In this document: in pieces, positions 4,431 to 44,150 of the stretch
Layout of the letters: the number at the start of each line of letters is the position of its first letter
Position numbering within the stretch: the stretch's first letter is position 1
NCBI RefSeq assembly: GCF_026571515.1
Contig: NW_026865957.1
Location: forward strand, 186,001-250,000
Direction: 5' to 3'
Length of the DNA: 64,000 nucleotides
From: Ruditapes philippinarum
Lineage: Eukaryota
Translations under genes and position numbers: made by a program
Notes under the pieces: model-generated
Databases searched by the model: none
Told to the model about the DNA's origin: nothing
Seen by the model: only the letters and a program-made list of their open reading frames with translations

Positions 4431-5073
4431 TTCTCATATTATAAAATGTCATTTTATAAAGTGTTCATAGAAGTGCTGGTTGTGAAACTGAAAATTTATG
4501 CTATAAACTTAGATTTTTTTAATATTTGGATATTGGGATATTGTCTTAAATATTTATTCTGGGACATTATAAAATGGCACAAGCAACTCTAGATTAGTGA
4601 TGTATTGTCTTCTTGTCCAGTCAGATGCATATACTGCCATTTCGTCTTGTTGGCCAATGTGAAATGTATCTTTTAGTCATAGGTTTTTATAGAAATATAG
4701 ACAACTAAGATTTTAAAATTCCTTTTGTATTTACATTATCTTAACACATTGTTATGAAATATATCACTCTTATACAAATTCTAAGCTTATTGATTTATTG
4801 ACTGTAAGTTGGATACCAACATAAGATTGATTTCCAGTTTTGTTGTCGGAGGTTTCCTGTCATGTTATATCATGTCCCAGATATAGTTAATCACCTTAGT
4901 GATGTAACAGGTTTTCTCCTATTAAATTATATAAGGAGTTAACTCATTACTGTACTAAGGTGACAATATACTGAACAAAGTAATAAGATATAAGGATACT
5001 ATAGCTGTATCAAGTGGTTAATTCTAAACCATAGTGATAATTTATCATTACTGGATGACACAATAATATAGAT

Positions 5074-5272
5074 ATGAGCCGTGTCATGACAAAACCAACA
5101 TAGTGCGTTTGCGACCAGCATGGATCCAGACCAGCCTGCACATCCGCGCAGTCTGATCAGGATACATGCTGTTCGCTATCAGTTTCTCTACTTGTTATAG
5201 GGTTGCGCAGGCTGGTCTGGGTACATGCAGGACGCAAACACATTACGTTGGTTTTGTCATGGCGCGGCTCAT
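5074..5272. mobile_element. Palindromic MITE (internally deleted copy)
   Basis: atgagccg...acaaaaccaaca / tggttttgtc...cggctcat inverted ends; same family as the copies at 23347, 26004, 29966 and 38246. Confidence 0.8.
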
Positions 5273-5612
5273 ATATGTATATACATAACACATTTGTATA
5301 CATATATTTTACTTGCACACCCATATTTTCATAATTTTGATAAAAATGCAATGCCATGTTTTTTGCATGATATTATGATCTGTATAATATTGAAATTATA
5401 TTTAATAAATGACCTCTTCATTTTTTCTGACCATCTTTTCTCATCACTTTTACAAAATGAAAAAAACTGTTCATACATTTGGTGAATTTTTGTTATTTCT
5501 AGACATTTTAGTAATTTATCACTTTTCATAATCTGTATAGATATACATTTTAATCAATAGAAAAAATATGATTGATATACATCAATGATCATTTTAATGG
5601 ACCATTCCAGTG

Positions 5613-22112: not shown

Positions 22113-23052
22113 TTAGTACTTCGGTCGGTAGGCGGGATCATATCCGGGACCTGTATGCGGAGGAGGATACGTTTGTGGCTGTGGATAACCCGGTTGGAAG
22201 CTGGAACCACCTGGTGGTGGTCCTGGGTAGCTTGGCGGAGGACCTTGCGGATGTGGTTCTAAAATATTAAAGAGAATGTGTGACAGTAAATTTACGACAT
22301 GTTTCTTATAAGATTGTTAAAAATATTACTTACTCATGCGATGTGACATTTTTTAACATTGGGCTATTATTTTAAATCGTTTTGGTCTTAAAATAAATAA
22401 TTGTCTAAGATGGGGATTAAGTAGAATTTTATAGAAACTGTACCAATTAAATAAACAAACTTAATAAAGAAAAACACTTATTACATTAACTTGCTCTAAA
22501 TGACGTCATGATTTAATATTAAAACATGAATTTCACCAAAAAACAAGGCGACAAAGCGGGCTTTAAAGAAACGGTGCAGAATCTGTAACATATTACTTAC
22601 GATACGCAGGAGGTTGAACAACTGTCACTCTTGTCGCGTGTTGTGGAGATGGGTTTATAACACTTCCACGTTGTTTTTTCTTCTTACATATGTAAACCAG
22701 CACGACAATCACAGCCACTATAAATATTGTCCCGAACACGGCGCCGGCCACAATACCGGTTATCGTACAACACCCATAGTCGTAGTCGTACTTGCTGCCG
22801 CAACATCCATACGTGCATTCGTAAGTCTCGCTGTAGTATATGTTATAACAGCTGTCACCTGATGCTCCTACCGGAAGGAAAGACAATAATAGGTTATTAA
22901 TTAGTGAAAACAATCGGATAACTTCCGGCATGTCCGTTTTTTCGTATACTCAGTATGTCTGAGTTGGTCAGATATGCACCAATCCCAATATTAAGTACGA
23001 AACATATTTATATGATTATGTCACATTGTGTCATGTAGTTTTGTTGTGTGTT

Positions 23053-23108
<56 letters not shown>

Positions 23109-23952
23109 TATTATTATTATTATTATTCAATAAGTATCCTAAAAACGCCTCAATTTTAAAGCAGGTGTATGCGTCATTTCTTATGATGTAAAGCCATGGG
23201 ACAATTGTATTCTTACTACATGTAGCAATTACACTTTATTTATAACAGGAATTTGTGCGAGTTTTGTTATTAAATAGCAAGCTAAACCTGAAGATATGTA
23301 CAAATAGTGATGAAGAATAAGGTCATTTTATAATTTATGTATGTTTACAAAACCAACATAATGGGTTTGCGATCAGCATGGATCCAGACCAGCCTGCGCA
23401 TCCGCGCAGTCTGATCAGGATCCATGCTGTTCGCTATCAGTTTCTCTACTTGTAATAGGGTTAGTAAGCGAACAGCATGGATCCTGATCAGACTGCGCGG
23501 AAGCGCAGGCTGGTCTGGATCCTTGCTGGTCGCAAACGCACTATGTGGGTTTTGTCATGACGGGGCTCATATTAATGTTATTCAACGTGCTAAATGAATC
23601 ATAAAGTAATAGATAACCAGCCAATATGTACACTGCACTTTGGTTATATAACTATAACATATGGCCAGTTTTTAATATAGCAAATCGTATACAATTGAGA
23701 TTGTAATTTCAAAGACCACACGATCGGACAATATAAGATAAATCTTTGTTTCCGCTTCAAGGCCCCGTGAAATGATTTTAAAGATGGCAAGTAGCTTCTT
23801 GTTTAAGAAAGTCAACGAAAAAATCGTTATAACATAATTACGTAATTCTTTTTATTGTTTACTGAATGATTAATCAAATAAAATAAGTTATTACCTTGAA
23901 GAAACAGCAATATTGATAAAATAAATGTCGAAGTAAATAATAGAAAATCCAT
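22113..23952 (-). CDS. Shisa-like/CYYR1-like single-pass PY-motif protein, gene A (156 aa); exons 23895-23952, 22601-22867, 22113-22258
   Basis: Signal exon MDFLLFTSTFILSILLFLQ|gt. Exon 2 has CYNIYYSETYECTYGCCGSKYDYDYGCC + TM + CKKKK. Exon 3 is Pro/Gly-rich with PPSY and ends YDPAYRPKY*. GT-AG phase-1 introns keep the frame open. Confidence 0.85.
23053..23126. repeat. Compound microsatellite (ATC)n(ATT)n in intron 1 of gene A
   Basis: Directly visible. Confidence 0.95.
23347..23570. mobile_element. Palindromic MITE (left end truncated)
   Basis: Same family as 26004-26242. Confidence 0.85.
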
Positions 23953-25817
23953 CTTTTGAATGATCGTAAATATTTAACAATTTCTTTTATTCATTTCGTT
24001 TTAAACGGCTTAGACATGTGCCTTAAGCTTATGATTTTACATGTTTAAAAGGTTACATTTTCTAATAAGCTTACGAAATAATAATCGTAATCGGTAATGT
24101 CCGTTCAATTTACAATGTATTTATTTTTATGAGAGACTTATGTTGTGTTTTCATCGGCCTCGCAGACACTACTTTTGATACGACAAATGCCAAAGTCGCA
24201 CGTGCAGACTACGTAATCTAACGAAATTAACCGAGTATCTGTTAATACTTCGGCCAATGTTTTTATAGATCAATAATATCAATACAATAATCAATATATA
24301 CACCAGTCATATATATACAAATGTATATATATATATTTCAGTATCAGCTTAAACAAAGTTAAACATACTAGAAAGTTCAAGTTTAATTTTTGTTTAACGG
24401 AGGAAACAGCCACGTTGATTCAATATTTATTATTATTATTATTATTATTATTTATAATTGTAATTATTATTATTATTTTAAATTAAGCCTAGTCTACTGG
24501 TTATATCAGTTATTACGCATGTTGATACTTTATACTCTGTTAGTTGAATATCCCCAAATTACGAAGATATAATTCCCAGTATTTTCAACGGATTTAATAA
24601 TTCTGAACATACCGCCCTAGAAATATTCTGCTCAACTTTCGAATGAATGATCACAAACATCCTAGTTTCAGTCGATCGATCGGGTACTCCACTGTGGTAT
24701 TTTGACATGACCATGACGGAACTGTAAATTCTTCTGAGATTTTTATACTACTTGATGTGGGTTTGGTCCTATAACTTGTATGCACATTTTCAGATCATTC
24801 CTTTGCCCTGTTTTTTTCCCCAAGCATAATAATTTTAATGCGAAAAAAGACCCTAAAACGAAAAGCGTTGCAAAATCGACCTAACCGTACACAAAAATCG
24901 ATTTTCAATTTAATTGAGTATATATTTTTATTTTCCTTTGCAGGATTGTCCAATTAAGTGGTTGGCATGATCTTTTTAAGAATGTCAATCAAATTTTATG
25001 TTTTTAGGCTGTTTGATCTCAAAAAAGCTCCTTTAATTGTCCAAATAATTCCATTTATATTTGACCGAGATTGAATAATCCCAGTTGTAAAAGATTTCGA
25101 TAATATTTGACCCCTATAAAACGAAACCGGGCCCTTTTAAACATTTAAATATTTTTTCTTGTTTTTTTTCCCTTCAAAACCCCTTTTAATTGTCTAGGCC
25201 ACAAACCGACAATGGGGGGGGCCCCGTGGGGTTAAAGTTAAGGTTGGGTTGGGCTTCAAAACCAAACCCCCACCCCCTTTGCCGAAGTGGGAACAAAAGA
25301 CTTTAAGATTCTCTCATGTTTAAAAAAGTTGTACAGAAAGCTTACGGAAGGTTTGGGGCCCTTTTAAAAGAGACCCTTTTTAGTCCTTAAAAATGCACGA
25401 ACGGAAGGGGACTCTGAGGTCCCAACCACTAAAATTTTGTTTGGGCAGGCACCCCAAAGAACTTTTCATTTTGGGGCCAAAAATTACATAGACCCGTTAC
25501 TATTTTAAAAATTCTAAAATCAAATCTAAAGGGAAAAGGGAAAAAAAAACAAATATAACAATAACGACGTTTTATTTTTCATATAAATAGTGAACATAAT
25601 ATGTTAATTAAATATATCAAAATCTCCTTTATAACTTTACAAATTTTTCGAGTAAACATCTGAAATATTTTTCGCAAACTATGGCCTCAAAATAAAATAA
25701 ATGTATAGTCTTAGGTTGCTATGTTATGTTCTAATAATTAAGTAATAAAGTTCTTATCCAATCATATTAAGGTATGTGACTTGATTCCATCACTGCTATA
25801 TGTAAGAACTTATATAT

Positions 25818-28735
25818 TTATTTAGGTGGGTATGCGGGGTCATAAAGAGGCGCGTTTCCAGGCGGTGGGGGAGGGTACATCTGTGGAGGCTGGTTTCCGG
25901 GGTGAAATCCAGGTGCCCCGGGAGGAGGTCCGTGGTAGCCCGGCGCTGGAGGTCCTTGTGGATCTGAAATGTCAAAATATAAAAAAGTTATTCTGAATAT
26001 TAAATGAGCCGCGTCGCGACAAAACCAACATAATTGGTTTGCGACCAGCATGGATCCAGACCAGCCTGCGCATCCGCGCAGTCTGATCAGGATCCATGCT
26101 GTTCGCTTACCAACTCTATCACAAGTAGAGAAACTGATAGCGAACAGCATGGATCCTGATCAGACTGCGCGGATGCGCAGGCTGGTCTGGATCCATGCTG
26201 GTCGCAAACCCATTATGTTGGTTTTGTCATGACACGGCTCAATTATCAAATAGCACCAATCCTACTGGATAGATGCATTGCTTCCGTGCTTATCATGTGT
26301 GATTGATCAGATACTTGTGCAAGCCCAAAACTACATGTACATTATTGTTGTGTGTACATATTATGTGATATTTTTAGATTCCTTGTATTTGACATTTGAA
26401 GGTTCTATGATAACCGCCGTGTGAACAAATCTGGGGATGTTTCTAAATTCAAAACCTCACCATTTTCATGATTAAATGTTGAAAACTGCTGTAACCGGTG
26501 CTAGGGTGCGCGGACGTTAACTTACTCATTCTGACCAAGCCTGCAACATTTGCAATTTTGTCGTTTTGAGCGAGTTTTTAAAAGGGGTTTCGTGTTTTTC
26601 TTTATTGAATACAATTGGCTTGCCGAAGATGGTCGTAATAGACAGGTATAACAAGAATGTGTACCCTTTTACAGCCGGCCGTAAGAATAAGTTATGAGTA
26701 TATGCCTTGCTTGAGATAATCACAATATACCAGCAGAACAGGTTTGACTTTGTAACATGCCAATGATGGTTGTAATAGGTAAAAAAGTTGTGCCGTGCCA
26801 GGGATGGTCAGAGTTAGATGTAACAACATTTACATGCCGTGTAGATAATAGGGGCTAAAAGCAAGTATAACAAAGCTCGAATTTGTAGATGTGAAACATT
26901 GTCCCAAATCTTTGTCAGCAATGGTTGTCGTTATAGACGGGTAAAACAAAAAGGTTTGTCTCAATAGACTTACAATGTGTGAGTGAATGTAGGGAATGCA
27001 AATGATGGTCGTGACAAAGGTTTTAACATATCTTAAAAGGGTTGACTTAATAGGCATGAATAGCAAATAATGAATGTACCGTGCAAATGATGAGAATACC
27101 AGACATCTGCATAAAAGCTTGTATTTGTGCCGTGCAAAGGAGGTCGGATTTGACAAGGGGTAGCTAAACAGTAAATTGTACAAACCCCGACCTACAGACG
27201 TTTGCACCGAGATATGACAAACTACAATATACTAGTAATCCTTCACAATTTTTATTGTAACCACTTAGATGGGGTAAATGAAATCTGAAATATGGTGGTT
27301 TTGAATATTTTAAGGAACATATACTATATACCGGTATTTCCCGATAAAGCATGGATTATAATAATTATAACACCGGCAAAACTTACTATATGGTGGAGGT
27401 TGAATCACTGTTACAGTAGGAGGAGCATTATTCTGTGGCGGATGATTGACGACTCTTCCTCTCCTCTTTGTCATTTGCTGCTTGCAGACTATGATCACAA
27501 CAACTATAATAACAATGACTATGATTCCCCCGACGACGGCGCCGGCAATTGTGCCTACCTCTACACAACAGCCGTAACTAGAACTGTAATAATCACCACA
27601 GCAACCATTTTTACAGTCGTAAGTTGTCCTATAATACGTGTTGTAGCAGTACTCTGCCGATATACCTATAACATAAAAAACAAAAACATTTTTACTCAAT
27701 GGGAATTAGCAGTGAGGCGGAGACAGCTGGTTCTAATCCTAAAGACTCGTGGGGACATTTCAACTTCATGAAATCCCGATTTCACCATTTCATTTTCAAG
27801 AATTCACGATTTCTATTTCATAAATCCACGATTTCAAATTTACGAATGCGTGATTTCAACTTCGTGAAATTGCAATACCATCATTTCAACATCACGAATT
27901 CACGATTTTAATTTCATGAATTCACGATTTCAACTTCATGAATTCATGATTTCAACTTCACGATCGAACTGATTTCAACTTCATGAATTAATTAACGATT
28001 ACAACTTCACGAATTCGTGAATTTATGAAGCTGAAATCTTGATTCCGTGAATTCCGTATCTTGAAGAGTTTAAACCGCAAATTCACGAAGTTAAAATTGT
28101 GAATTCATGAAAATGAAATCGGGAATTCATAATGTTGAAATGTCCCCACCAGTATTTCGTAAAATCCTGCTATCTACGTGGAGTCATGGTAACAGAACTT
28201 GATGTCTTGTTTGATTTTATACCGATTGTAACACATTTGCATTTATAATTCGGCGGTCGATCATTAACCGGCTTAACTGGATGATTATAATCAGAATTAT
28301 CAGTAATAAATTACTAATTTCATCGAAAATAATTGATTACTTATCTCAAATGTTTCCGAACCAGCGATGAGAGACAAAATACTCATGTATTATCACGGGG
28401 AAATAACGCCCTGCCCGAAGATCGAACCAGTGGAAAGTGACACGCCCCCCTGCCAGGTTACTAAATTACTAATATAACATTTTATCGAGCTAAGTGGGTG
28501 CACATCTTATCTGAATGATTTAAAGTTTTCTTACATAATGTAAAATACCGGTTTGCTAAGCCTAGATTATTACAAGAAATTTCAATAAAAAATGTTCAAG
28601 AGAACTATAATGTGAAATAAAATGATTTTGATCTAAACTATAGTGAATTAAAGAAATAAGTAATATACACTAACCCTTTAGAAACAAAATAAGTAGTAAA
28701 ATAAAAGTTGAGCTGAACATTTCCTGCAAATCCAT
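25818..28735 (-). CDS. Shisa-like/CYYR1-like protein, gene B1 (161 aa); exons 28675-28735, 27387-27665, 25818-25963
   Basis: MDLQEMFSSTFILLLILFLK|G; CYNTYYRTTYDCKNGCCGDYYSSSYGCC; TM; QPPPY; 146-nt Pro-rich last exon, same length as gene A exon 3; canonical phase-1 splice sites. Confidence 0.85.
26004..26242. mobile_element. Palindromic MITE, ~240 bp, in B1 intron 2
   Basis: About 100-bp inverted arms; absent at the equivalent B2 site near 34436. Confidence 0.9.
27741..28162. mobile_element. Foldback-like element built from ~21-bp units (ttcaacttcacgaattcacgat) in B1 intron 1
   Basis: ggggacatttcaac...gttgaaatgtcccc inverted ends; the internal units flip orientation. Confidence 0.75.
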
Positions 28736-29965
28736 GATTGTATATATCATGTCCACATTTTATGTCACAAGAAAATTATTTCAAAATTTTACATTCGATT
28801 TTATTTTGCTTAAAGCTGTTACATTGAAAGGGATTTGAAACTGTAATAGGCTTAGTGTATTGAATTAAATAACTAGATTTTGAAAATGTTGGAGGTTTAA
28901 AGGCATACATCGACGCAACTTAAAAAAGAAACTTTCTTATTGTTAAAACATACTTTTTAAGCTTGGCCTTTGAATTGTTCACTGACCAAAGATAATAAAC
29001 GCATTTTATATTAAATTTTAACCATTACCCATTATAATCATTAATGGACTTGTCCATCTTCCAATTTGGATAAAACCATTTATCATTTAAGGGCAAAATT
29101 CCATTAGGTATTTACCAAATAGCTAACAGTGCAGACCAAGATTCAGGCGGTGTGGGTGTGCTGGTTGATATTGGTCTGCATTGCTCGCATGGATCGAATC
29201 GATTGCCGCCTGTAAGGATTAAAGACAAACATGTTAAAATCTGCCTGCTTGATGAATATTTTTACTTTTTGGTCGAGCAGTGTCTTTAATATTCATGTAC
29301 AGTGAAACCATGAAAGTGGCATAAACAATTGTAAAACTTATTTATATTCACGTATACATTTGTGTAGGGATAAGCAATCAGAAATTCCGTAATACTATAA
29401 TAATAAGGAATAGTATTATATTGCATACAATAAGTGCAGAAAACATATTAGACAAAATTGTCAAATTCCATCCATCTCGTATGTAAAACAATTAATAACA
29501 TTTGTATTAAATTAAAATAAATTATATATTACATCTAATTAATTCTTTCATTTTAATTTAATTTAATTAATTGATTTATTAAATTGAATTAAATTAAGTT
29601 CTGGTTGCCCAGGAGGTATATGTAACACTCGAAAAATATGCACGTTTAGTAAAGGTCCATTATGTCACAGATATGCTTTTATTTTTTCAAAAGCTTCTTC
29701 TTTTTGGTTTCTTGTTATAGTTTCCAAAAAGTAACTAAAGCTAGACCAATAATTTGAACAATCTTTTGTTTCTTTTTCTTTCTGGGAATAAGTACAGTAA
29801 TAGAGATTTAATATTTTGTATGGAAGTCAAAATACTCTATTTTGGTTACATTTTGTTACTTTTGTGACAAAATATTTCACATTCAGTACTACTTCCTTCA
29901 AAAAATAAGCATCTAGCATTATAAACATTATAATATTCATATTTGCTCTTTCTAAATAAGGGAAA

Positions 29966-30204
29966 ATGAGCCGCGTCACGACAAAACCAACATAATGGGT
30001 TAGCGACCAGCATGGATCCAGACCAGCCTGCGCATCCGCGCAGTCTGATCAGGATCCATGCTGTTCGCTATCAGTTTCTCTACTTGTTATAGGGTTTGTA
30101 AGCGAACAACATGGATCCTGATCAGACTGCGCGGATGCGCAGGCTGGTCTGGATCCATGCTGGTCGCAAACGCACTATGTTGGTTTTGTCGTGACGCGGC
30201 TCAT
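29966..30204. mobile_element. Palindromic MITE
   Basis: Full-length; an equivalent copy sits at the same site in the other duplicate (38246-38483). Confidence 0.9.
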
Positions 30205-30850
30205 TAATGTATTCAATTCTGATGCATAATGTGGCTTTAAAATGTAGTTGATTATAATAATTTTCCTTAGCTGAATCTTTACAGTTTCAAGTATTACCAT
30301 GACACCCGCGCCTTAACCAGTTGACTTTTCAGTAGTCAGCCTTCTTAACAATAGAGTTTTAAAATCAAAAGATCCTGACACCGGGAAGACAAGAACAATA
30401 TAAAACACTGAGATAATGTACGGATTTTTTTTTACAAATTCCAAACTGTATGCTCTGCTTCATTTGAGGTATAATGTTTAATGTTACATCCATGTTACAC
30501 AACTACCACAAGAGATAAAAGGTCTAAAGTGCTGATATTAACACATAATACATATACATGTGTCATTTGTTAACGCTGTTGCAACTTCATTGATACAAGG
30601 CCTATATATTACAGTAGATCATTTCTATTTATATTAACTGGACTTCCATGACTATTTTTCTCAAAGTAAAACTTTAAAACCTGTGTCACTGACTAGTTTA
30701 AAATGTCTCATACGTTTGAAACAGTTAACAGCAACTTCTTTCTATCACTATTTTATCTGTTCAGTTGTATTTGCTCTTAAAAGTCGTCTCTTTTCAAAGC
30801 CAACGGCGTTATCAATTCAAACGTTTCAGGTGTTGCTTTTCGTGATTACT

Positions 30851-31846
30851 TTATATACTGTACGGTGGCGGTGGAGAATTATTGCCAATTGTCCGATTAC
30901 ACTCGTTGGTATTCTGATGCGGTTGCCATTCTATTATCTGGCCGGAAGTGTTTCTACCAATAGTATTTGACGCATGCGTGCCATGAACGGAAGCTGAGTC
31001 GATATAATATGGCGGAGGAGCCATTGGTTGTCTGAACACCCCTAAAATAATAAAATAGCTTTTTCAGATTTTCTTATTTCAACAGCGGGGATCGGGGTTG
31101 CTTCTTTTCAAAAGAGGCTACGATGTTAGGCTAAATTTGATATGACTCGACAACATAAAGTAAAGTGTGTCTATAAAAGCGGTTTAATGGGTACAATGTG
31201 CACTTTTAGAGCAATGAAAACACATAATAGAATTCAAGGTAAATGATTTGTTATGAAACTTTTCTGTAAACAGGCAAAATTGCCGTTTCCTACTTCTGCC
31301 TAAAACTGTTAGTCTATATATAGTCACCCTTAAACTTTTAAAATTTTCAATTTATATATTTATTATTCATTTTGAGAAAAGGTTGACACTTGTTCACATG
31401 TTTTAACTCTATGAACTTTCTAAATAAATATCGATAGCCGGCTAATCGTATCAATTTTTCTAGGAAGCGCGACTTTTAGAGAGGGGAAAAAACTATTACA
31501 AAAGTTATAAAATAACATTACTCACATTGTAGATGATAATAGTTAAAGTTCCTTCTGTCAGTTCCATCGATACATGCTCGTGGTAGGTTGGAAGGTCTAT
31601 CTTCAGTCATACGTATCGAAATACCGGACGGTCCGGTTCTTCTCCGTGAATCTGTTTTCTTCTTGTACCAAAGGGCGATAAGCAATACAGCTAGCACTGA
31701 TAGTAAGATTGCAGCCACGATTATATAAGCTATGTAAGATGATGTCGCGCAACAATATTTGTCGGGACTATTTCCACAGCAGCCATTGTCACACATGTAT
31801 AACTCATGCCGAACTTCGTTTATGCACTCCGTTTCGCATTGTACCT
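30851..31846 (-). CDS. Shisa-like protein, gene C1; exons 31526-31846 and 30851-31041 intact, signal-peptide exon not found (5'-truncated duplicate or possible pseudogene)
   Basis: CINEVRHELYMCDNGCCGNSPDKYCC + TM + KKK; tail with MAPPPYY and PPPPYSI*. Homology to C2 stops near 32310, before the position equivalent to C2 exon 1. Confidence 0.7.
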
Positions 31847-33652
31847 CTTGTATGGAAGAAAGAAATAGGTATTTAAAGCGCATATCATTAAAGGCTGGTC
31901 GATATGACTACACGATTTAATATCGTCACTATTTCGACAATTTCTTTTCAGTTTTAGACAAGAATCACTCTAACATTTATATAATAGGTTAATGCGTTTA
32001 CAATTATTAGCAAATGCACGAAGACTTGTTCTATTAGATAACTTCAGATGACACTTAGTTTGAATTTTATTCTGATAAAAAATATATCTTAAGAAGCGTC
32101 ATAAGGAAAGTAGTGCAATATTGTTTCAAAGTAGCTATGTCGTTCTCCAATTAATTTCTTAAAACCGATCAAGATTTCACGTACTAACTGTTGAAATGAA
32201 ATAGTATATAGTGATGGCTATTCATCAGTATAAGTCTAATTAATCCTTACCACTCTAAATATCTTAAATGGACTTGTCCATTCTAAAGACTAAACCATTC
32301 ATCATAAATATAAAGTATATTTTGATATTTCTTCATATATGAAATCTGATCCTTTTTAAGATATGATACTGTTGGTATTTTGCGAGGTTTTCTTAAAAAA
32401 AAATGAATTTTCTTTACAATAAAATCATTAAACCAGAAAACCGAAATGCTTTGAAACACTGAGATAAGTATATCAGTATTCTGTGCTCTATTTTTAAACA
32501 CTTGCGCAGTTTTTTCGGTCCACACAAGTCCAAATATTTTTTAAAACATTTTTTGGTTGTTTTCTTTTGTGAGATCGTGCAGTTCTACTTTGTGTGTCGT
32601 TTTCAAAGAAACCTGCCGGAAAGATAAGTTGGTTCATGTCTGAATACGCCTAAGCATTAGCAAATAGTTCTTTTATGTCCACTTTTACAGAACTACTACG
32701 CTCTTTGTCAGATTACTGTATTGTAACATGGCCAGTGATTGGCTGCGAAAAGGGCAGGAAAAACCGTAAGATTCAATGATAAGCATGTAATGTTAACAAG
32801 TATGAAAAATGTTTATGAAACTAACACTGCATTGTTTTCTTAATAAAATGAACTTTACCATATAGGTCTCTAGGATAATTTCTCATTTGGATTTTTGCAT
32901 TTTAAAAATAGTATATGTCAGTCCTGTGATCAGCAGAAAATTTCATTGAAAAGGGGGAATCATCTTTGGAACACTGCGAAAAATGTGGACTGTCAAACCC
33001 TGTATAACAAGGTCAGTTTAGTATGTCAGGTATGTCATTCTTCTAGAAAAACCCCATCTTTAGCATAAATACTCAATTTTAAGGTTAGTTTAGTGGTAAT
33101 TTCTTGTAATGCCAGTCTATGGGAAAATTAATACAGTAGTATGACTTTGTTCTTAAGTTGTTGAACTAAATTGAAAATGTTTTGCATTCTTACTAGTTAT
33201 TACACTTTATTTATAAAAGACTTAGTGCGAGTTTTGTTATTAAATAGCAAGCTAAATCTGAAGATTTGTACAAATAGTGATGAAGAATAAGGTCATTTTA
33301 GAATTTATGCTAAGTTTACAATAATATTTCACATTTTCTTTCATCTTAAAGCAGTACAAATTGTATAATCAGGCCGATGAAAGACATATTAATTGCAGGA
33401 TTGTCCAATTAAGTGGTTGGCATGATCTTTGTAAGAATGTCAATAAATTGTTATGTTTTTAGGCTGTTTGATCTCAAAAAAGCTCCTTTAATTGTCCAAA
33501 TAATTCCATTTATATTTGACCGAGATTGAATAATCCCAGTTGTAAATGATTTCGATAATATTTGACCCCTATAAAACGACCGGCTTTAATCATAACTATT
33601 TTGCTTGTTATTTCCCTTCAATCATTTTAATTGTCTAGGCTACAAACCGACA

Positions 33653-33850
33653 ATGGGGGCCTCCGTGGCTTAAAGTTAAGGTTGCTGACTTCAAACCAAC
33701 CACTACCATTTGCCGAAGTGGGAACAAATGGACTTTAGATTCTCTCATGTGAAGAAGTTGTACAGCTAGCTTACGGAAGGTCGGCCATTCATGAGACCCA
33801 TCTAGTCCTTAAATAATGCACGAACGGAGGGCACATCTTAGGTCTAACCA
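33653..33850 (+). mobile_element. Decayed tRNA-derived SINE (Meta/RUDI-like body); garbled duplicate near 25213-25430
   Basis: ggggcctccgtggc..aagttaagg..gctgacttcaaa head followed by cagctagcttacggaaggtcgg...aaataatgcacg...gggcac, recalled as a mollusc SINE core. Confidence 0.55.
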
Positions 33851-34241
33851 CTAATTATGTTAGACAGGCACCCAATGAACTTGTCATTGTGGACCAAAAT
33901 TACATATGACCCGTTACTTTAAGAATTCTACATCAACGTCTAAGAATAAGAAAATAATACAACAAAATATAACAATAACGACGTTTTATTTTTCATATAA
34001 ATAGTGAACATAATATGTTAATTAAATATATCAAAATCTCCTTTATAACTTTACAAATTTTTCGAGTAAACATCTGAAATATTTTTCGCAAACAATGGCC
34101 TCAAAATAAAATAAATGTATAATCTTAGTTTGCTCTGTTATGTTCTAATAATTTTTTAATAAAGTTCTTATCCAATCATATTTAAGTATGTGACATGATT
34201 CTGTCACTGCTATATGTAAGTACACAAATGTACTTAGTAAT

Positions 34242-37024
34242 TTATTTAGGTGGGTAGGCGGGGTCATAAAGAGGCGCGTTTCCAGGCGGTGGAGGAGGGT
34301 ACATCTGTGGAGGCTGGTTTCCGGGGTGGAATCCAGGTGCCCCGGGAGGAGGTCCGTGGTAGCCCGGCGCTGGAGGTCCTTGTGGGTCTGAAATGTCAAA
34401 ATATAAAAAAGTTATTCTAAATACAAATGTATTAAATATCAAATAGCACAAATCCTACTGGCTATGTGCATTGCTTCTATGCTTTTCATGTGTGATTGAT
34501 CAGATACTTGTGCAAGCCCAAAATTACATTATTGTTGTGCGTACATATTATGTGATATTTCTAGATCATTATATTTGACATTTGAAGGTTCTATAATAAC
34601 CACTGTGTGAACAAATCTGGGAATGTTTCTAAATCAAAATTTCGCTATTTTCATGATTAAATGTTGAAAACTGCTTTTGCCGATGCTAAGGGACGCGGAC
34701 GTTAACTTCAACTTACCAGTACCGTCCATAAACGGGCTCATTCTAACCGAGCAATTTTGTCGTTTTGAACGTTTTTTTTAAGGATTCTGTTTCTTTCTTT
34801 ATTTAATATAATTGGCTTGCCGAAGATTGTCGTAATAGACAACAACAAGTTTATAACAAGTTTTGAATGTGTACCCTTTTACAAACGGTCGTAAGAATAA
34901 GTTAAGAGTATATGCCTTGCGTGAGATAGTCACAATATACCAGTAGAACAGGTTTGACTTTATAACATGCCAATGATGGTTGTAATAGACCGGTAGAAAA
35001 AGTTGTGCTGTGCCAGGGATGGTTGGAGTTAGGTGTAACAACATTTATATGCCGTGTAGATAAACGGGGCTAAAATAGGTATAACAAAGCTCGAATTTGT
35101 AGATGTGAAACATTGTCCCAAATCTTTGTCACGCAATGGTTGTCGTAATAGACGAATAAAACAAAAAGGTTTGTCTCAATAGACTTACAATGTGTGAGTG
35201 AATGTAGGGAATGCAAATGATGGTCGTTTAACAAAGGTTTTAACTTTTAACATATCTTAAAAGGGTTGATTTAATAAGCGCGATTAGCAAATATTGAATG
35301 TACCGTGCAAATGATGAGAATACCAGACAACTGCATAAAAGCTTGTATTTGTGCCGTGCAAAGGAGGTCGGATTTGACAAGGGGTGGCTAAACAGTAAAT
35401 TGTACAAACCGACCTACAGACGTATGCACCGAGATGACAAACTACAATATACTAGTAATCCTTCACAATTTTTATTGTAACCACTTAGATGTGGTAAATG
35501 ACATCTGAAATATGGTGATTTTGAATAACTTATTTAATTTAAAATATACTTTATACCGGTATCTTCTGATAAAGCATGATTATATTAGACAGGGAAAACT
35601 TACTATAGGGTGGAGCTGAAGGTTGAATCACTGTTACAGTAGGAGGAGCATGATTCTGCGGCGGATGATTGACGACTCTTCCTCTCTTTGTCATTTGCTG
35701 CTTGCAGACTATGATCACAACAACTATAATAACAATGACTATGATTCCCCCGACGACGGCGCCGGCAATGGTGCCTACCTCTACACAACACCCGTAACTA
35801 GAACTGTAATAATCACCACAGCAACCATTATTACAGTCGTAGGCTGTCATATAATACGTGTTGTAGCAGTACTCCGCCGATATACCTATAACAAATAAAA
35901 AGTCAATTTTACTTAATGGGAATTAGCAATGAGGCGGAGACAGACGAAATACTGGTGAGGACATGTCAACTTCATGAAATCCCGATTTCATCATTTCAAC
36001 CTCACGAATTAGTCAATTCATGAAGTTGAAATCGTTAATTCATGAAGTTGAAATCGTGAATTCCTGAAGTTGAAATCGTGAAATCATAAAGTTGAAATCG
36101 TGAATTCATGAAGTTCAAATCGTGAATTAATGAAGATAAAATCGTGAATTTGTGAACTTAAAGTCATGAATTCGTGAAGTTGAAATCATGAGTTCGTGAA
36201 GTTGAAATCGTGAGTTCGTGAAGTTGAAATCGTGAGTTCGTAAAGTTGAAATCGTGAATTCATGAAGTTGAAATCGTAAATTCCTGAAGCTAAAATCGTG
36301 GTATGGTGAAATCCGTATGTTGAAAACGTGAATTCACGAAGGTAAAATTGTGACTTCACGAAAATGAAATCGAAAATTCATGAAGTTGAAATGTCCCCAT
36401 CGGTCTTTCGTATAATCCTGCTCTCTATGCGTTTCTCTTTTCAGATAGCCGTGATAACAATTGACTTGGGCAGTACTTTTTATCGTTTAGCTTGAATTTT
36501 ATACCAATTGTAACACATTTTCATTCATAATTCGGCGGTCGATCAATAAACCGGCTTAACTGGATAACAATAATCAGTAATCAATAACTAATTTCACCGA
36601 AAGTGATTGATTACTAATCTCACATGGGTTCTGAATCAGCTGTGAGAGAAAATAGACTCATGTCCGAGAAGTATTGTCACGGGAAAATTGCGCCTTGCCC
36701 CGACGCTCGAACCACTGACCGCCCCGATTACTAACCCAATGCTTTACCTATTGAGCTAGGTGGACATATCTTATCTCAATAATTTAAAGTTTTTTATTAC
36801 ATAAAGTAAAATACCGATATGCTAAGCCTAGATTATAACAAGAAATTTCATAATAGAATGTCAAGAGAAATACAAATGTTCGCTATCATGTGAAACAAAA
36901 TGATTTTGGTCTAAACTATGTTGAATTAAAGAAATAAATAATATACACTAATAATATACTAACCCTTTAGAAACAAAATAAGTAGTAAAATAAAAGTTGA
37001 GCTGAACATTTCCTGCAAATCCAT
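34242..37024 (-). CDS. Shisa-like/CYYR1-like protein, gene B2 (162 aa); exons 36964-37024, 35604-35885, 34242-34387
   Basis: Near-identical paralog of B1 with the same splice sites. Ectodomain CYNTYYMTAYDCNNGCCGDYYSSSYGCC; QPSAPPY at the end of exon 2. Confidence 0.85.
35944..36412. mobile_element. Foldback-like ~21-bp-unit element in B2 intron 1, inverted relative to the B1 copy
   Basis: Left end acgaaatactggtg, right end ggtctttcgta; same flanks as the B1 copy. Confidence 0.75.
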
Positions 37025-38245
37025 GATTGCATATATTATGTCCACATTTTATGTCACAAGAAAGTTATTTCAAAATACTTCATTCGATTGTATTTTGATT
37101 ATAACTGTAATATTGAAAGGGATTTGGAGCTGTAATAGGCTAAGTGTAACTAAATAACTAGATTTTGAAAATGTTGGAGGTTTAAAGGCACATATCGACG
37201 CAACTTAAAAAAAAACTTTCTTATTGTAAAAACATACTTTTTAAGCTTGGCCTTTGAATTGTTCACTGAACGCACTTTATATTAAATTTTAAGAATTTTA
37301 ACCATTACCCATTATAATTATTAATGGACTTGTCCATCTTTCAATTTGGATAAAACCATTCATCATTTAAGGGCAAATTTCCATAAGGTATTAACTAAAT
37401 AACTAACAGTTCAGACCAAGATCAGGCGATACTGGTGTGCTGGTTGATATTGGTCTGCACTGCTCGCATGGATCAAATCTATTGCGGCCTATAAGGACTA
37501 AAGACAAACATGTTAAAATCTGCCTGCTTGATGAATATTCTTACTTTTTGGTCGAGCAGTGTCTTTAATATTCATGTACAGTGAAACAATGAAAGTGGCA
37601 TAAACAATTGTTAAACTTATTAATATGTACGTATACATCTGTGTAGGGATAAGCAAACAGAAATTTCGTAATACTATAATAATAAGGAATAGTATTATAC
37701 TGCACACAATAAGTGCAGGAAACATAGAAAAAGTTGTCAAATTACATCCATCTTGTATGTAAAACAATTAATAACATTTGTATTAAATTAAAATAAATTA
37801 TATATTAAATCTAATTAATTCTTTCATTTTAATTTAATTTAATTAATTGATTTATTAAATTGAATTAAATTAAGTTCTGGTTGCCCAGGAGGTATAATTA
37901 TGTAACACTCGAAAATTATGCATGTTTAGTAAAGGTCCATTATGTCACAGATATGCTTTTATTTTTTCAAAAGCTTCTTCTTTTTGGTTTCTTGTTATAG
38001 TTTCCAAAAAGTAACTAAAGCTAGGCCAATGATTTGAACCATCTTTTGTTTCTTTTTCTTTCTGGGAATAAGTACAGTAATAGAGATTTAATATTTTGTA
38101 TGGAAGTCAAAATACTCTATTTTGGTTACTTTTTGTTACTTTTGTGACAAAATATTTCACATTCAGTACTACTTCCTTCAAAAAATAAGCATCTAGTATT
38201 ATAAACATTATAATATTCATATTTGCTCTTTCTAAATAAGGGAAA

Positions 38246-38483
38246 ATGAGCCGCGTCACTACAAAACCAACATAATGGGTTAGCGACCAGCATGGATCCA
38301 GACCAGCCTGCGCATCCGCGCAGTCTGATCAGGAACATGCTGTTCGCTTTCAGTTTCTCTACTTGTTATAGGGTTTATAAGCGAACAGCATGGATTCTGA
38401 TCAGACTGCGCAGATGCGCAGGCTGGTCTGGATCCATGCTGGTCGCAAACGCACTATGTTGGTTTTGTCGTGACGCGGCTCAA
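38246..38483. mobile_element. Palindromic MITE
   Basis: Duplicate of 29966-30204. Confidence 0.9.
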
Positions 38484-39128
38484 ATGTATTCAATTCTGAT
38501 GCATAATGTGGCTTTAAAATGTAGTTGATTATAATAATTTTCCTTAGCTGAATCTTTACAGTTTCAAGTATTTCCATGACACCTGCGCCTTAACCAGTTG
38601 ACTTTTCAGTAGTCAGCCTTCTTAACAATAGAGTATCCTGAAACCCGGAAGACAAGAACAATATAAAACACTGAGATAATGTACGGATTTTTTTTTTTAA
38701 AATTCCAAACTGTATGCTCTGCTTCATTTGAGGTATAATGTTTAATGTTCCATCCATGTTACACAACTACCACAAGAGATAAAAGGTCTAAAGTGCTGAT
38801 ATTAACACATAATACATATACATGTGTCATTTGTTAACACTGCTGCAACTTCAAAGATACAATGCCTATATATTACAGTAGATCATTTTTATTTATATTT
38901 ACTGGACTTCCATGACTATTTTTCTCAAAGTAAAACTTTAAAACCTGTGTCACTGACTAGTATAAAATGTCTCATACGTTTGAAACAGTTAACAGCAACT
39001 TCTTTCTATCACTATTTTATCTGTTCAGTTGTATTTGCTCTTCAAATTCATCTCTTTTCAAAGCAAGCAATTTCAGTTCAACGGCGTTATCAATTCAAAC
39101 GTTTCAGGTGTTGCTTTTCGTGATTACT

Positions 39129-41324
39129 TTATATACTGTACGGTGGCGGTGGAGAATTATTGCCAATTGTCCGATTATACTCGTTGGTATTCTGATGCTG
39201 TTGCCATTCGACTATCCGACCGGAAGTGTTTCCACCAATAGTATCTGACGCATGCGTGCCATAAGCGGAAGCTGAGTCGACATAATATGGCGGAGGAGCC
39301 ATTGGTTGTCCGAACACCCCTAAAATAATAAAATTTATTTTTAAGATTTTCATATTTCAACATATATATAATAGCTGCACAGGTGGTTTGCTTCTTTTCA
39401 AAATAGGCTACGATGTTAGGCTAAATTTGATATGAATCAACAAGTGTGTCTATAAGAGCGGTTTAATTGGTATGATGTGCACTTTTAGAGCAATGAAAAC
39501 ACATGATAGAATTCAAGGTAAATGATTTGTTATGAAACTTTTCTGTAAACAGGCAAAAATACCGTTCCCGCACATACTACTGCCTAAAACCGTCAGTCTA
39601 TAGTCATCCTTAAACTTTTACTATTTTCAATTATTATTTATTATTTATTTTGAGAAAAGATTGACACTTGTTCACATAATATGTTTTAACTCTCTGAACT
39701 TTCTAAAAAATATCGATACGCGGCTAGTCGTATCAATTTTTCCAGGAAGCGCGATTTTGAGAGAGGGGAAAAAACTATTACAAAAATTATACAATAACAT
39801 TACTCACATTGTAGATGATAATAGTTAAAGTTCCTTCTGTCAGTTCCATCGATACATGCTCGTGGTAGGTTGGAAGGTCTATCTTCAGTCATACGTATCG
39901 AAATACCGGACGGTCCGGTTCTCCTCCGTGAAACTGTTTTCTTCTTGTACCAAAGAGCAATAAGCAATACAGCTAGCACTGATAGTAAGATTGCGGCCAC
40001 GATAATATAAGCTATGTAAGATGATGTCGCGCAACAATATTTGTCGGGACTATTTCCACAGCATCCATTGTCACACATGTATAACTCATGCCGAACTTCG
40101 TTTATGCACTCTGTTTCGCATTGTACCTCTTGTATGGAAGAAAGAAATATGTATTAAAGCGCATATCATAAAAGCCTCGGCGAAGATAAAATATCGTCAC
40201 TATTTCGACAATTTCACAAGAATTACTCTTACATGTATATAATAGGTTTATGCGAGTACAATTATCTGCAAATGCACGAATACTTATTCTATTAGATAAT
40301 TTCAGATGACACTTAGTTTGAATTTTATTCTGATAAAAAAAATACATCTTAATTAAGAAGCGTCACAAAGAAAGTAGTGCAATATTGTTTCAAAGCAGTT
40401 ATGTCGTTCTCCAATTAATTTCTTAAAAACCGATCAAGATTTCACGTACTAACTGTTGAAATGAAATAGTATATAGTGATGGCTATTCATCAGTATAAGT
40501 CTAATTAATCCTTACCACTCTAAATATCTTAAATGGACTTGTCCATTCTAAAGACTAAACCATTCATCATTTTAAGGGGGGAAATTAACAATATGTACAT
40601 TTGTAAAAACTGCAGTCTACGTTCAAATGGCAAGGACTTTGGTCCGCACGGGCGGCACGAGTAAATTCACTTGCCGCTAGCATATCGATCTTATTACTAA
40701 TAAATTGTTAAGTATTGCATGTCGTTTATCATGTTCTTTTTTTATGTATTGCCGGATACATAAAGAATCTTTAAAAATATTCCCGACCAGACCCACAATT
40801 CCTTGCACGAGATTCATTGGCCCTTCAAGTTGACCAATTTCTGCCATCTTGTTTTAACATAACCGTATCGAGAAAAATTTTGATTTTCTTAATATTCAAT
40901 GGTTTTTATTTTACATTTTTACAACTTCTTTTTGTCACTTCTTTCGATAACCGTAACAAATTTTATATAACGTGGTACATTTTCTCGTTTCAAACATAGT
41001 TTTAGAAATTCTCACGAAAATGAGAACTTGCGAGATGATTTATTCCTGATAAAGTTTTTAGGAGGACGACAGCTTACTCTCCATTTAAATTGCTCTGTGG
41101 TATTTCTGAACCACGCTCTTGTACTTATGTTTACGAAAAGTGCGCTTACTATCAAACGGACTGAAGACAGTAAAGCAATACAATCACCATTGCTGTATCT
41201 TTACAACTGTTCGGAAATAAATATATATTTTAGAATATAATACAAATGCATTTAACATACCTCGCAGTATCAAGAAAAATAGTCCAATTCTGAGGATTGC
41301 TGCGTAGGAATCTAACTTTTTCAT
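39129..41324 (-). CDS. Shisa-like protein, gene C2 (191 aa); exons 41261-41324, 39808-40128, 39129-39319
   Basis: Signal exon MKKLDSYAAILRIGLFFLILR|gtatg, phase 1; six-Cys ectodomain, TM, two PPxY motifs; frame open across both junctions. Confidence 0.82.
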
Positions 41325-42007: not shown

Positions 42008-44150
42008 TTAAGCCCGATGAGCAACATCGGCATTAATACTGTATGGTGGAGGCAGTTCGCCGTGCTGTTGTTGTGAAGTTTGGGGATCTAGTGTGTGACT
42101 GTATTCGTTTTGCGTTCGTTTTTGATTGGCAATTTGTTGCATATTTAATGACGTCAGTTCAATGTTTTCGTGAGAAACTTGGACGGCAGTGTAAGGTGGC
42201 GGCGGTCCTATGTACGGAGGAGGAGCCATTGTGCACGAGGAGGGTGTGGCTGAAATGTACAAAAACAATACTTGTACCTTAAGTTTTGAACGACTCATAA
42301 AAATACATTTGAAGACAGTGTAATAATGTATTGTTAAAGGACTATGACTTCTTCGCCGTATATACCATCTGTTTCAACTCAAACAATTCAAGTACAATTC
42401 TCAATTATGTGCGCTCATTTGTTTATTGACTAAATATATTCATAACTCACCACACATGCATTTCATTTTTCTTAACATTGAAAGAAATGGGCAAACATAC
42501 CCTGTTAACAAATATGTAGAATTCATTCTAATACTTTGCGGATGTTTGTAAATACAAAAAACAAACTATGTATATTTGAGTTTACTTACAATGCGATGAA
42601 TAACCGATGATTCTTGTGGTGTTATTTAAGCCTAATACACGATCATGAATTATATCTCGTCTGCTTGTGGAATTGAGCATCCGCTTGAGGTCCTTCCGTT
42701 TCCGGTAGCATATAACGAATACAGCTATTGCTAATACTACTAGGAACATAACACCGGCGACTATATATGGTATAAGTCTTCCATGTAGACAGCATTCAAG
42801 TTCTAAGTCGTTACCACAACATCCGAAATCGCAAAATTTTACCTCGGTGAAATCATGGTTGTAGCAAGCGGCCTCANNNNNNNNNNNNNNNNNNNNNNNN
42901 NNNNNNNNNNNNNNNNNNNNNNNNNNNNNNNNNNNNNNNNNNNNNNNNNNNNNNNNNNNNNNNNNNNNNNNNNNNNNNNNNNNNNNNNNNNNNNNNNNNN
43001 NNNNNNNNNNNNNNNNNNNNNNNNNNNNNNNNNNNNNNNNNNNNNNNNNNNNNNNNNNNNNNNNNNNNNNNNNNNNNNNNNNNNNNNNNNNNNNNNAATG
43101 GCGTCTTATATTTATTGTATATACATGTAGAAACAACAATGATTTTCTAAAGATTTAAATTCTTTTAACATATAATGACCAATGTGTCGGAAAAATGAAA
43201 AAATAAACAAATAAAATAAAAATAAATGCATAAATAAATAAAGAAAAGAAACAGAAATGAGCTAAAATCTTTACAAAAAAGACACAACGACCTATATTAG
43301 TTTTCCAGGTGGGGCTTGATTATATAAATCTTTGTAAGGTGTGCACGGGAGAGCAGCTGGGTAGAACAATTGGCTAGCTGGATAGGTTCCTAACATGTTG
43401 AGACTCGAACCTATCGGAGGTGCTCTGATAATAATTTGGTGCCAATATAACCTGCCACCGGAAACTGATAGCATATGGAATTAAATTTTAAGGCGCGATC
43501 AGTGAATTTGTCTTACTTTTATGTGTTACCATTGGATCCGATCTATATAAAAATCATAGTATCTTTTTAAAGTATGTTTCAGTGTTAACATTGAACCCGA
43601 TATAGATAAAATCAAAGTCTGGGAGTCACATTACATGTACCCATTGCTATTGAACAAGTTGTTTTAATGCAATAAAGTATTTGTAGTTATATGAGAGTTG
43701 CTCGAAAAGTGTAATATTATAAAGGCTTAATTAATTAATCAATAAATTGTTAAGTCTATATTTGTGTGCGAAGTGGGTGGAAAACAGCAATCACGTGTAA
43801 CCAAATATATTTTTGTTGATAAAATCTCTAAAATAAGTATGACCGCTAATTAATATGAAATTTAATAGTCCATATTTAAGACTCCTGTTTGATTTTTGAT
43901 ATATTATAATTACAAATATTTAAATAATACAATATTGTTATAAGAATTCATTTATTGCTCGTACCCTTGACAATATAAACGTTGTTATTTTATTGTGCAC
44001 ATGAATAATATAATATAATAAAAGTAGTATAATGATGTACAACACATAATGTCAGATAATATATCTATTTAATTATATAAAATATTATACAGTCTTACCA
44101 TTAATAAATGTATACAAACATCCAACGTATAGATATAATATCAAAATCAT
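42008..44150 (-). CDS. Shisa-like protein, gene D; exons 44099-44150, 42590-(gap, probably 43104), 42008-42249
   Basis: Signal exon MILILYLYVGCLYTFIN|gtaag; CYNHDFTEVKFCDFGCCGNDLELECC + TM + CYRKRK; last exon with three PPxY motifs (APPPY, PPPPY, LPPPY). The start of exon 2 is interrupted by an N gap. Confidence 0.75.
42877..43096. other. Assembly gap (220 N)
   Basis: Run of N. Confidence 1.

What the first reader, a model, noticed from the sequence alone, without database searches (positions are those of the whole stretch)
35604..35630. 6-nt indel swaps a PPxY motif (B1) for a PSAP motif (B2)
Seen: B1 exon 2 ends VIQPPPY (27387-27410), whereas B2 ends VIQPSAPPY because of an extra tcagct; exon 3 is protein-identical in both. 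Established: PPxY binds NEDD4-type WW domains, and P[S/T]AP binds the TSG101 UEV domain (ESCRT-I). These are the two viral late-domain motifs and both occur in LITAF and arrestin-domain adaptors. Inference: one indel may switch the near-identical paralogs between E3 recruitment and direct ESCRT-I recruitment, since neither tail has another canonical PPxY.
Basis: partly seen in the sequence, partly recalled or inferred. Interest (0 to 1): 0.7.

Follow-up and report, generated by a model that had tools for sequence, protein, structure and literature searches.

The report
Rare clam allele swaps sorting motif
A real 6-base insertion in one copy of a small Manila clam membrane-adaptor gene turns its only ubiquitin-ligase docking motif (PPxY) into an ESCRT-type motif (PSAP), but the four other samples examined show the gene without the insertion, so it is likely a young allele rather than an evolved switch between two fixed gene copies.

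Summary
B1 (161 aa) ends exon 2 in QPPPY; B2 (162 aa) has an extra TCAGCT, reads QPSAPPY, and has no PPxY or LPxY left. One sample's contig carries the 6 nt exactly, so a consensus error is unlikely. Both are six-cysteine, single-pass, proline-tailed Shisa-like/CYYR1-like (STMC6) genes of Manila clam. The two-paralog framing is weak. Contigs from three other DNA samples and one probable RNA sample, each from a different study, lack the 6 nt on B2-like haplotypes; one differs from B2 by only 2 letters plus the gap. The sequence unique to the duplication junction is absent in two of the three DNA samples and low in the third. The insertion is therefore derived, and B1/B2 are probably allele-level copies: a polymorphic duplication, or two haplotypes placed in tandem. 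P[S/T]AP recurs in the family (18 of 127 tails), always beside a PPxY. B2 is unusual for losing PY, not for gaining PSAP. Binding is untested, and no expression of the PSAP form was seen. Verdict: a real but probably minor allelic motif turnover; interest 0.25.

The parts
35614..35619 (-). The 6-nt in-frame insertion (Ser-Ala codons) that turns QPPPY into QPSAPPY
   Evidence: present in the X1 contig, left out in the X5, X6 and X11 contigs and, by length, in the X15 spliced contig
36964..37024 (-). B2 exon 1 (predicted signal peptide)
   Evidence: ATG..G|GT scan; same peptide in B1 and a homologous exon in gene C; X15 contig matches 36962-37051
35604..35885 (-). B2 exon 2: six-Cys ectodomain, hydrophobic helix, basic stretch, tail start ending PSAPPY
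34242..34387 (-). B2 exon 3: proline-rich tail without PPxY, and stop
   Evidence: joined to exon 2 in an X15 contig
28675..28735 (-). B1 exon 1
27387..27665 (-). B1 exon 2, ending PPPY; one extra Arg codon after the membrane helix
25818..25963 (-). B1 exon 3, protein-identical to B2 exon 3
24938..32305 (.). Block 1 (genes A1 and B1) of the tandem repeat
   Evidence: self-BLAST, 86.5-87% identical to block 2; 9.8% substitutions over aligned columns
33393..40570 (.). Block 2 (genes A2 and B2) of the tandem repeat
32306..33392 (.). Spacer between the blocks: unique part (about 32306-32700), a dispersed repeat (about 32707-33145), and a fragment homologous to gene C intron 1 (33182-33321 matches 23205-23350)
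   Evidence: bin 32500-32649 depth 8.35 in X1, 13.8 in X5, 0 in X6 and X11
22116..23952 (-). Gene C, the nearest paralog and outgroup; QPPAY at the end of exon 2 and a second PPSY in exon 3
   Evidence: its exon 2 and exon 3 peptides match P0154, named 'protein shisa-5-like [Ruditapes philippinarum]'
30854..31856 (-). Gene A1 (exon 2 and 3 frames), same family, PPxY motifs in exon 3
   Evidence: weak Shisa_N match, E 0.049
39132..40138 (-). Gene A2 (exon 2 and 3 frames), copy of A1
42011..42875 (-). Gene D (exon 2 and 3 frames), same family, three PPPY motifs

Best explanation
Gene B encodes a small six-cysteine, proline-tailed single-pass membrane protein that likely works as a NEDD4-family ligase adaptor through its one PPxY motif, and B2 is likely a young allele in which a 6-nt insertion removed that motif and created a PSAP predicted to bind TSG101. 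Shown: the gene models, the motif change, the insertion in one sample's contig, and its absence from B2-like contigs of four other samples. Inferred: the insertion is derived. Inferred: B1 and B2 are allele-level copies of one locus, either a duplication carried by only some clams or two haplotypes assembled in tandem (not resolved; about even odds). Inferred: the main effect is loss of direct WW-domain docking, any TSG101 gain is weak and monovalent, and the allele is near-neutral or mildly hypomorphic among many PPxY-bearing paralogs.
For: Site 35614: 6 letters left out in X5 81/81, X6 45.6/45.6 and X11 13.2/13.2, one contig each; 0/7.35 in X1. The X15 spliced contig has 12 letters between 34385 and 35620 where the B2 form needs 18 (my arithmetic, table 8). 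These contigs are B2-like: over 35406-35790 X11 differs from B2 by 2 letters plus the gap, while B1 differs by 21 substitutions and 6 gaps; X15 has 0 differences over 35620-35790, where B1 has 3 plus a 3-nt gap. Paralog C reads QPPAY. Allelic divergence exceeds the B1/B2 divergence: two X5 contigs differ from B2 by 24 and 29 letters over 34934-35214, B1 by 14. Spacer bin 32500-32649 is 0 in X6 and X11 and 13.8 in X5, against about 80-110 over A and B exons; an X5 contig fits 31803-32305 and then runs on 134 letters unlike the spacer. Family: 91 of 97 proline-rich tails keep PPxY, and all 18 tails with P[ST]AP also have PPxY. CYYR1 and WBP1L recruit NEDD4-family ligases through PPxY (PMC11399591, passages). 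An isolated PSAP of Hrs bound Tsg101 weakly or not at all without a second region (PMC2172688, passages).
Against: Contigs drop the rarer branch, so heterozygous PSAP carriers among S2, S3, S5 and S8 cannot be excluded, and each call rests on one contig. Only 6 of 24 listed runs were laid. S1 shows PSAP together with the spacer, and its contigs also hold letters found in neither assembled block (11 of 25 listed letters near gene A). S1 may therefore be a second carrier, and the allele may not be rare. Contig depth is not a copy number. The assembled junction has no N gap and cuts inside a short repeat, which fits a real duplication. B2's frame is intact, with 9 synonymous against 4 non-synonymous codon differences from B1. 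QPSAPP has the form of the family's recurring P[ST]APP motif, which composition controls show is not random.
Confidence: 0.62

Rival explanations
1. One reading: B1 and B2 are stable paralogs with divided labour. B1 recruits NEDD4-type ligases; B2 recruits ESCRT-I directly.
For: Tandem blocks without an N gap. Spacer contigs near-identical to the assembly exist in S1. Both frames are intact. The clam TSG101 exon keeps Met95 (role of M95 from PMC2172688 passages). P[ST]AP is enriched in the family.
Against: No listed contig of S2, S3, S5 or S8 shows PSAP. Their PPPY contigs sit on B2-like haplotypes, not B1. The spacer is absent or low in S2, S3 and S5. No listed contig bridges 32305|32306, though thousands of records were not shown. 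None of 127 homolog tails has P[ST]AP without PPxY.
Confidence: 0.08
2. A functional polymorphism: one locus (or a copy-number variant) with two maintained alleles that route the adaptor by different paths, PPxY to a ligase or PSAP to TSG101.
For: The indel differs between samples. S1 may be an independent PSAP carrier. The new motif has the family's P[ST]APP form. The ectodomain is also polymorphic at residues 33-39. In viral budding the late motifs are interchangeable (PMC2958808, abstract).
Against: PSAP was seen in 1 of 5 informative samples. No spliced PSAP contig was seen. There is no frequency or selection data. Segregating indels are elevated in disordered regions (PMC4494057, title and start of abstract in a listing only).
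Confidence: 0.13
3. No functional change: the residual APPY, or other proline and tyrosine sites in the shared tail, still bind WW domains, so both forms use the same partners.
For: Exon 3 is identical and holds more tyrosine-proline sites. About 40% of some NEDD4-family interactomes lack a canonical PY motif (PMC8509885, passage). APxY occurs in 20 of 127 homolog tails, many of them probably the terminal DPAY/NPAY region (not separated).
Against: The family conserves PPxY strictly, in 103 of 127 tails against at most 20 for any other first letter.
Confidence: 0.14
4. The 6 nt are a consensus error.
For: Block 1 has a stretch (about 25125-25560) with stretched homopolymers relative to block 2, typical of a poorly polished long read. 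The assembly is locally unreliable.
Against: An X1 contig matches B2 across the site with 0 differences over 368 letters. The PPPY state is present in four other samples. The insertion is in frame and not a homopolymer.
Confidence: 0.03

Closest known systems
STMC6 / Shisa-like single-pass adaptors: CYYR1, WBP1, WBP1L/OPAL1, VOPP1, TMEM92 (PMC11399591 and PMC5037681, passages; Pei and Grishin 2012 itself not held)
   Same: Signal peptide, six ectodomain cysteines, one membrane helix, proline-rich tail with PPxY. Homologs match Pfam CYYR1 (15 of 70), WBP-1 (9 of 70) and Shisa_N (6 of 70). Named neighbours are 'CYYR1-like' and 'shisa-5-like' in Ruditapes and Mercenaria.
   Different: B1 has a single PPxY where the mammalian members have several; B2 has none. 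B exon 2 alone matched none of these Pfam families. PSAP and TSG101 are not mentioned in the CYYR1 paper (0 occurrences).
LITAF/SIMPLE, Hrs and arrestin-domain adaptors with both PPxY and P[S/T]AP (Hrs: PMC2172688 passages; LITAF: listing; ARRDC1 PSAP recalled)
   Same: Host endosomal adaptors that use the two late-domain motif types.
   Different: They carry both motifs together, as do 18 of 127 homolog tails here. B2 has PSAP alone. No homology to these proteins was tested or is claimed.
Retroviral and filoviral late domains (PMC2958808, abstract)
   Same: PPxY and P[S/T]AP are alternative routes into ESCRT.
   Different: This is a host gene with no viral origin indicated. In viruses the two routes converge on the same outcome, which weakens the idea of a functional switch.

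Membership tests
STMC6 / Shisa-like adaptors | Six conserved cysteines in a short ectodomain | tested here: met
   C6, C17, C21, C22, C32, C33 invariant in 7 of 7 aligned exon-2 peptides
STMC6 / Shisa-like adaptors | Signal peptide and single transmembrane helix | tested here: met
   Hydrophobic exon 1 by Kyte-Doolittle scan; hydrophobic run with weak TM-family matches at residues 39-67 of exon 2. No dedicated predictor was run.
STMC6 / Shisa-like adaptors | Proline-rich cytoplasmic tail with PPxY motif(s): B1 and the common allele | tested here: met
   One PPPY at residue 110
STMC6 / Shisa-like adaptors | PPxY motif: B2 allele | tested here: not met
   No PPxY or LPxY. B2 is a family member by descent but does not meet the PY-adaptor criterion.
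STMC6 / Shisa-like adaptors | Pfam CYYR1, WBP-1 or Shisa_N match | tested here: inconclusive
   No match for B exon 2 alone; a minority of 70 homologs match at E<=0.01. The spliced protein was not scanned.
STMC6 / Shisa-like adaptors | Binds NEDD4-family WW domains | not testable with these tools
   Inferred from CYYR1 and WBP1L (PMC11399591, passages)
TSG101-UEV ligands (P[S/T]AP late-domain type) | P[S/T]AP in a cytoplasmic proline-rich region | tested here: met
   PSAP at residue 109 of B2, after the membrane helix
TSG101-UEV ligands (P[S/T]AP late-domain type) | Host TSG101 with an intact PTAP pocket | tested here: inconclusive
   One exon aligns to human TSG101 residues 65-121 (E 1.1e-24) and keeps Y68, N69, T92 and M95. 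The rest of the pocket was not examined. Pocket roles other than M95 are recalled.
TSG101-UEV ligands (P[S/T]AP late-domain type) | Measured UEV binding and TSG101-dependent sorting | not tested
   No complex prediction was run; experiment needed
Fixed tandem paralog pair | Both copies and the junction present in unrelated individuals | tested here: not met
   S2, S3 and S5 contigs show only PPPY on B2-like haplotypes, with the spacer absent or low. Contigs show presence better than absence.

The most novel reading that the evidence does not exclude
A natural, segregating 6-nt indel toggles a host membrane adaptor between the two late-domain motifs. Clams would then carry alleles (or copy-number variants) that sort the same protein through a NEDD4-type ligase or directly through TSG101/ESCRT-I, and both forms are expressed and maintained. 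A side claim is that P[S/T]AP is an unrecognised second motif of invertebrate STMC6 adaptors (18 of 127 tails).
Probability: 0.13. Interest if true: 0.6.

Novelty: new variant of a known kind. Interest (0 to 1): 0.25.

Why it matters
As it most likely stands, this is an ordinary example of motif loss and gain by a small indel in a disordered tail, in a very polymorphic animal, and a caution that tandem 'paralogs' in this assembly can be allele-level copies. If both forms are expressed and bind differently, it would be a one-mutation natural test of whether PPxY and P[S/T]AP are interchangeable in a host adaptor, as they are in viral budding. The enrichment of P[S/T]AP next to PPxY in the invertebrate family is a small, separate and testable lead that these adaptors couple ligase and ESCRT-I recruitment.

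Tried and rejected
A word-based protein search with B2 exon 2 found 6 candidates and none scored. The same search with alignment A1 found 8 proteins and no B ortholog. No cross-species B ortholog was obtained, so polarity rests on paralog C, on B1 and on conspecific haplotypes. Metagenome scans found nothing. Pei and Grishin 2012 was not held. No listed holder was on record as RNA; this is not evidence on expression. The raw RNA run X24 had depth 1 at the indel and gave no splice joints among those shown, so it is uninformative. I first read X1's 'B1-type' intron letters (9 of 10) as proof that S1 holds B1. I rejected this because several are shared with X5, X6 and X11 and X1's contigs are far closer to B2. 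Copy number in S1 from contig depth (A and B about 7-9, C-intron contig 9.1, spacer 8-10) fits no model cleanly and was not used as proof. A templated origin of the insert inside the coding sequence: one 8-of-9 match 308 nt upstream, not convincing. Complex and structure prediction were not run, because PSAP-UEV is a textbook pair and only a stand-in TSG101 from another clam was at hand. Three look-ups of earlier findings gave nothing on this locus. Literature searches showed no report of this gene or of such a swap in the titles and abstract starts listed; most subscription journals and supplements were not seen.

Full report
Observation. The window holds a tandem repeat of about 7.2-7.4 kb (24938-32305 and 33393-40570, about 87% identical). 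Each block carries two minus-strand genes, A and B; single relatives lie on either side, C (about 22.1-24.0 kb) and D (about 42.0-42.9 kb). B1 and B2 have three exons with GT-AG introns and give open frames of 161 and 162 aa. B1 exon 2 ends QPPPY. B2 has six more bases at 35614-35619 and ends QPSAPPY. A motif scan finds one PPxY and no P[ST]AP in B1, and one PSAP and no PPxY or LPxY in B2; exon 3 is protein-identical. The two also differ by one Arg codon, 4 non-synonymous and 9 synonymous codons.

What the genes are. Exon 2 has six cysteines invariant across 7 aligned paralog peptides, a hydrophobic helix and a basic stretch. A profile of that alignment found 316 proteins at E<=0.001, of which the best 150 were returned. 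Named ones are 'cysteine and tyrosine-rich protein 1-like' and 'protein shisa-5-like' from Ruditapes philippinarum and Mercenaria mercenaria, plus unnamed mollusc proteins. The exon 2 and exon 3 peptides of gene C match the Ruditapes shisa-5-like record P0154, which places the window in the Manila clam. I scanned 70 of the 150 homologs against Pfam: 15 match CYYR1, 9 WBP-1 and 6 Shisa_N at E<=0.01. B exon 2 alone matches none of these. This is the STMC6/Shisa-like group, whose mammalian members CYYR1 and WBP1L recruit NEDD4-family ligases through PPxY (PMC11399591, three passages read). The genome holds at least 23 exon-2 matches at E<=1, and the exon-3 frames visible in the fetched loci mostly carry PPxY.

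Is the indel real? Yes. A contig of run X1 (sample S1) matches 35452-35819 with no difference. S1 may be the source of the assembly or close to it, so it is not counted as independent for frequency. It does make a consensus error unlikely. The assembly is locally poor elsewhere: B1's 3' flank (about 25125-25560) has stretched homopolymers relative to block 2.

Paralogs or alleles? I laid 6 of the 24 listed runs. At 35614 the six letters are left out in the only contig of X5 (81 of 81 depth), X6 (45.6 of 45.6) and X11 (13.2 of 13.2): three samples from three studies. A spliced contig from X15 (probably RNA, a fourth study) joins exon 3 to exon 2 with 12 letters where the PSAP form needs 18. X24 was uninformative (depth 1). 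These PPPY contigs are not B1. X11's contig differs from B2 by 2 letters plus the 6-nt gap over 35406-35790, where B1 differs by 21 substitutions and 6 gaps. X15 equals B2 over 35620-35790, where B1 has 3 substitutions and a 3-nt gap. So PPPY lies on both B1 and B2-like backgrounds and PSAP on one only. With gene C reading QPPAY, the insertion is most simply derived and young.

Divergence and junction point the same way. Two X5 contigs differ from B2 by 24 and 29 letters over 34934-35214, more than B1 does (14 substitutions), so B1 against B2 is within allelic range. The spacer part unique to the assembled junction (bin 32500-32649) has depth 0 in X6 and X11 and 13.8 in X5, against about 80-110 over the A and B exons. 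An X5 contig follows the A upstream region to 32305 and then continues into other sequence. These three samples look like one A and one B locus.

Limits. Logan contigs drop rarer branches, so heterozygous PSAP carriers can be hidden, and contig depth is not a copy number. S1 has near-exact spacer contigs but also letters found in neither assembled block (11 of 25 listed letters near A), so it may be a second carrier. No listed contig bridges 32305|32306, but thousands of records were not shown and a high-copy repeat ends there. Whether the assembled tandem is a real duplication in some clams or two haplotypes joined is unresolved; I put the odds about even. Either way a fixed paralog pair is not supported.

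Motifs in the family. Of 150 homologs, 127 have a tail of 40 aa or more; 23 were dropped as too short. Of these 127, 103 have PPxY (shuffles: mean 23.7, maximum 32) and 18 have P[ST]AP (mean 4.2, maximum 11). All 18 also have PPxY. Other orders of the same four letters occur 1-9 times, except the overlapping [ST]APP (24), and P[ST]xP with any other x occurs at most 6 times. So P[ST]AP is a real accessory motif of this family, though relatedness among the proteins was not corrected for. Of 97 proline-rich tails, 91 keep PPxY. B2 is thus unusual for losing PY. Gene B had already lost the second PY site that C has in exon 3 (GPPPSY in C, GPPAPGY in B), so the site hit by the insertion is its only one.

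Mechanism. The partner for PSAP exists: a clam exon aligns to human TSG101 65-121 and keeps Met95, the residue whose mutation abolishes P(S/T)AP binding (PMC2172688, passages). The same passages report that Hrs fragments with PSAP alone bound weakly or not at all. Viral work shows the late motifs converge on the same ESCRT outcome (PMC2958808, abstract). About 40% of several NEDD4-family interactomes lack a canonical PY motif (PMC8509885, passage). My inference is that the common allele docks a NEDD4-family ligase, that the B2 allele loses this docking and gains a weak TSG101 site, and that the net effect is small given the many PPxY-bearing paralogs. None of this binding was measured or predicted here.

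Verdict. Observation confirmed; interpretation partly supported. It is a new variant of a known kind of adaptor, most likely a young allele (confidence 0.62). A maintained functional allele switch is not excluded (probability 0.13, interest 0.6 if true). Overall interest 0.25.

Noticed in passing
window 25125-25560: B1's 3' flank has systematically stretched homopolymers relative to block 2 (about 33580-33965), the look of an unpolished long-read stretch in the assembly.
   Followed up: partly
window 35830-35850 (B ectodomain, residues 33-39): Three of the four amino-acid differences between B1 and B2 fall in this 7-residue stretch. X5 and X15 contigs show further letters there, and X15 has two allele contigs. 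Possible diversifying selection on the extracellular loop; not tested.
   Followed up: partly
homologs P0001-P0150: P[ST]AP is enriched beside PPxY in invertebrate Shisa-like/CYYR1-like tails (18 of 127), including clam paralogs in L005, L006 and L010.
   Followed up: partly
G000, loci L026-L029 and seven further places: Eleven UEV-domain matches above the Pfam cut-off: two TSG101-like copies on different contigs and nine more divergent ones, which suggests an expansion of UEV-domain genes.
   Followed up: no
window 23895-23952: A likely signal-peptide exon 1 for gene C, homologous to B exon 1. The database model P0154 instead starts in the sequence just upstream of exon 2.
   Followed up: partly
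window 33182-33392: Block 2 ends in a fragment of gene C intron 1 without C exon 1 or exon 2, so the second block carries a destroyed C remnant.
   Followed up: partly
window 23346-23585, 25994-26244, 29964-30215, 38244-38483, 5062-5300: Copies of a palindromic MITE-like element of about 240 bp. The copy at 25994-26244 is present in B1 intron 2 and absent from B2 intron 2.
   Followed up: no
L007/L008/L009/L020, L005/L006, L014/L017, L026/L027: Sets of similar loci on different contigs (75-95% identical stretches), either recent paralogs or uncollapsed haplotypes.
   Followed up: no
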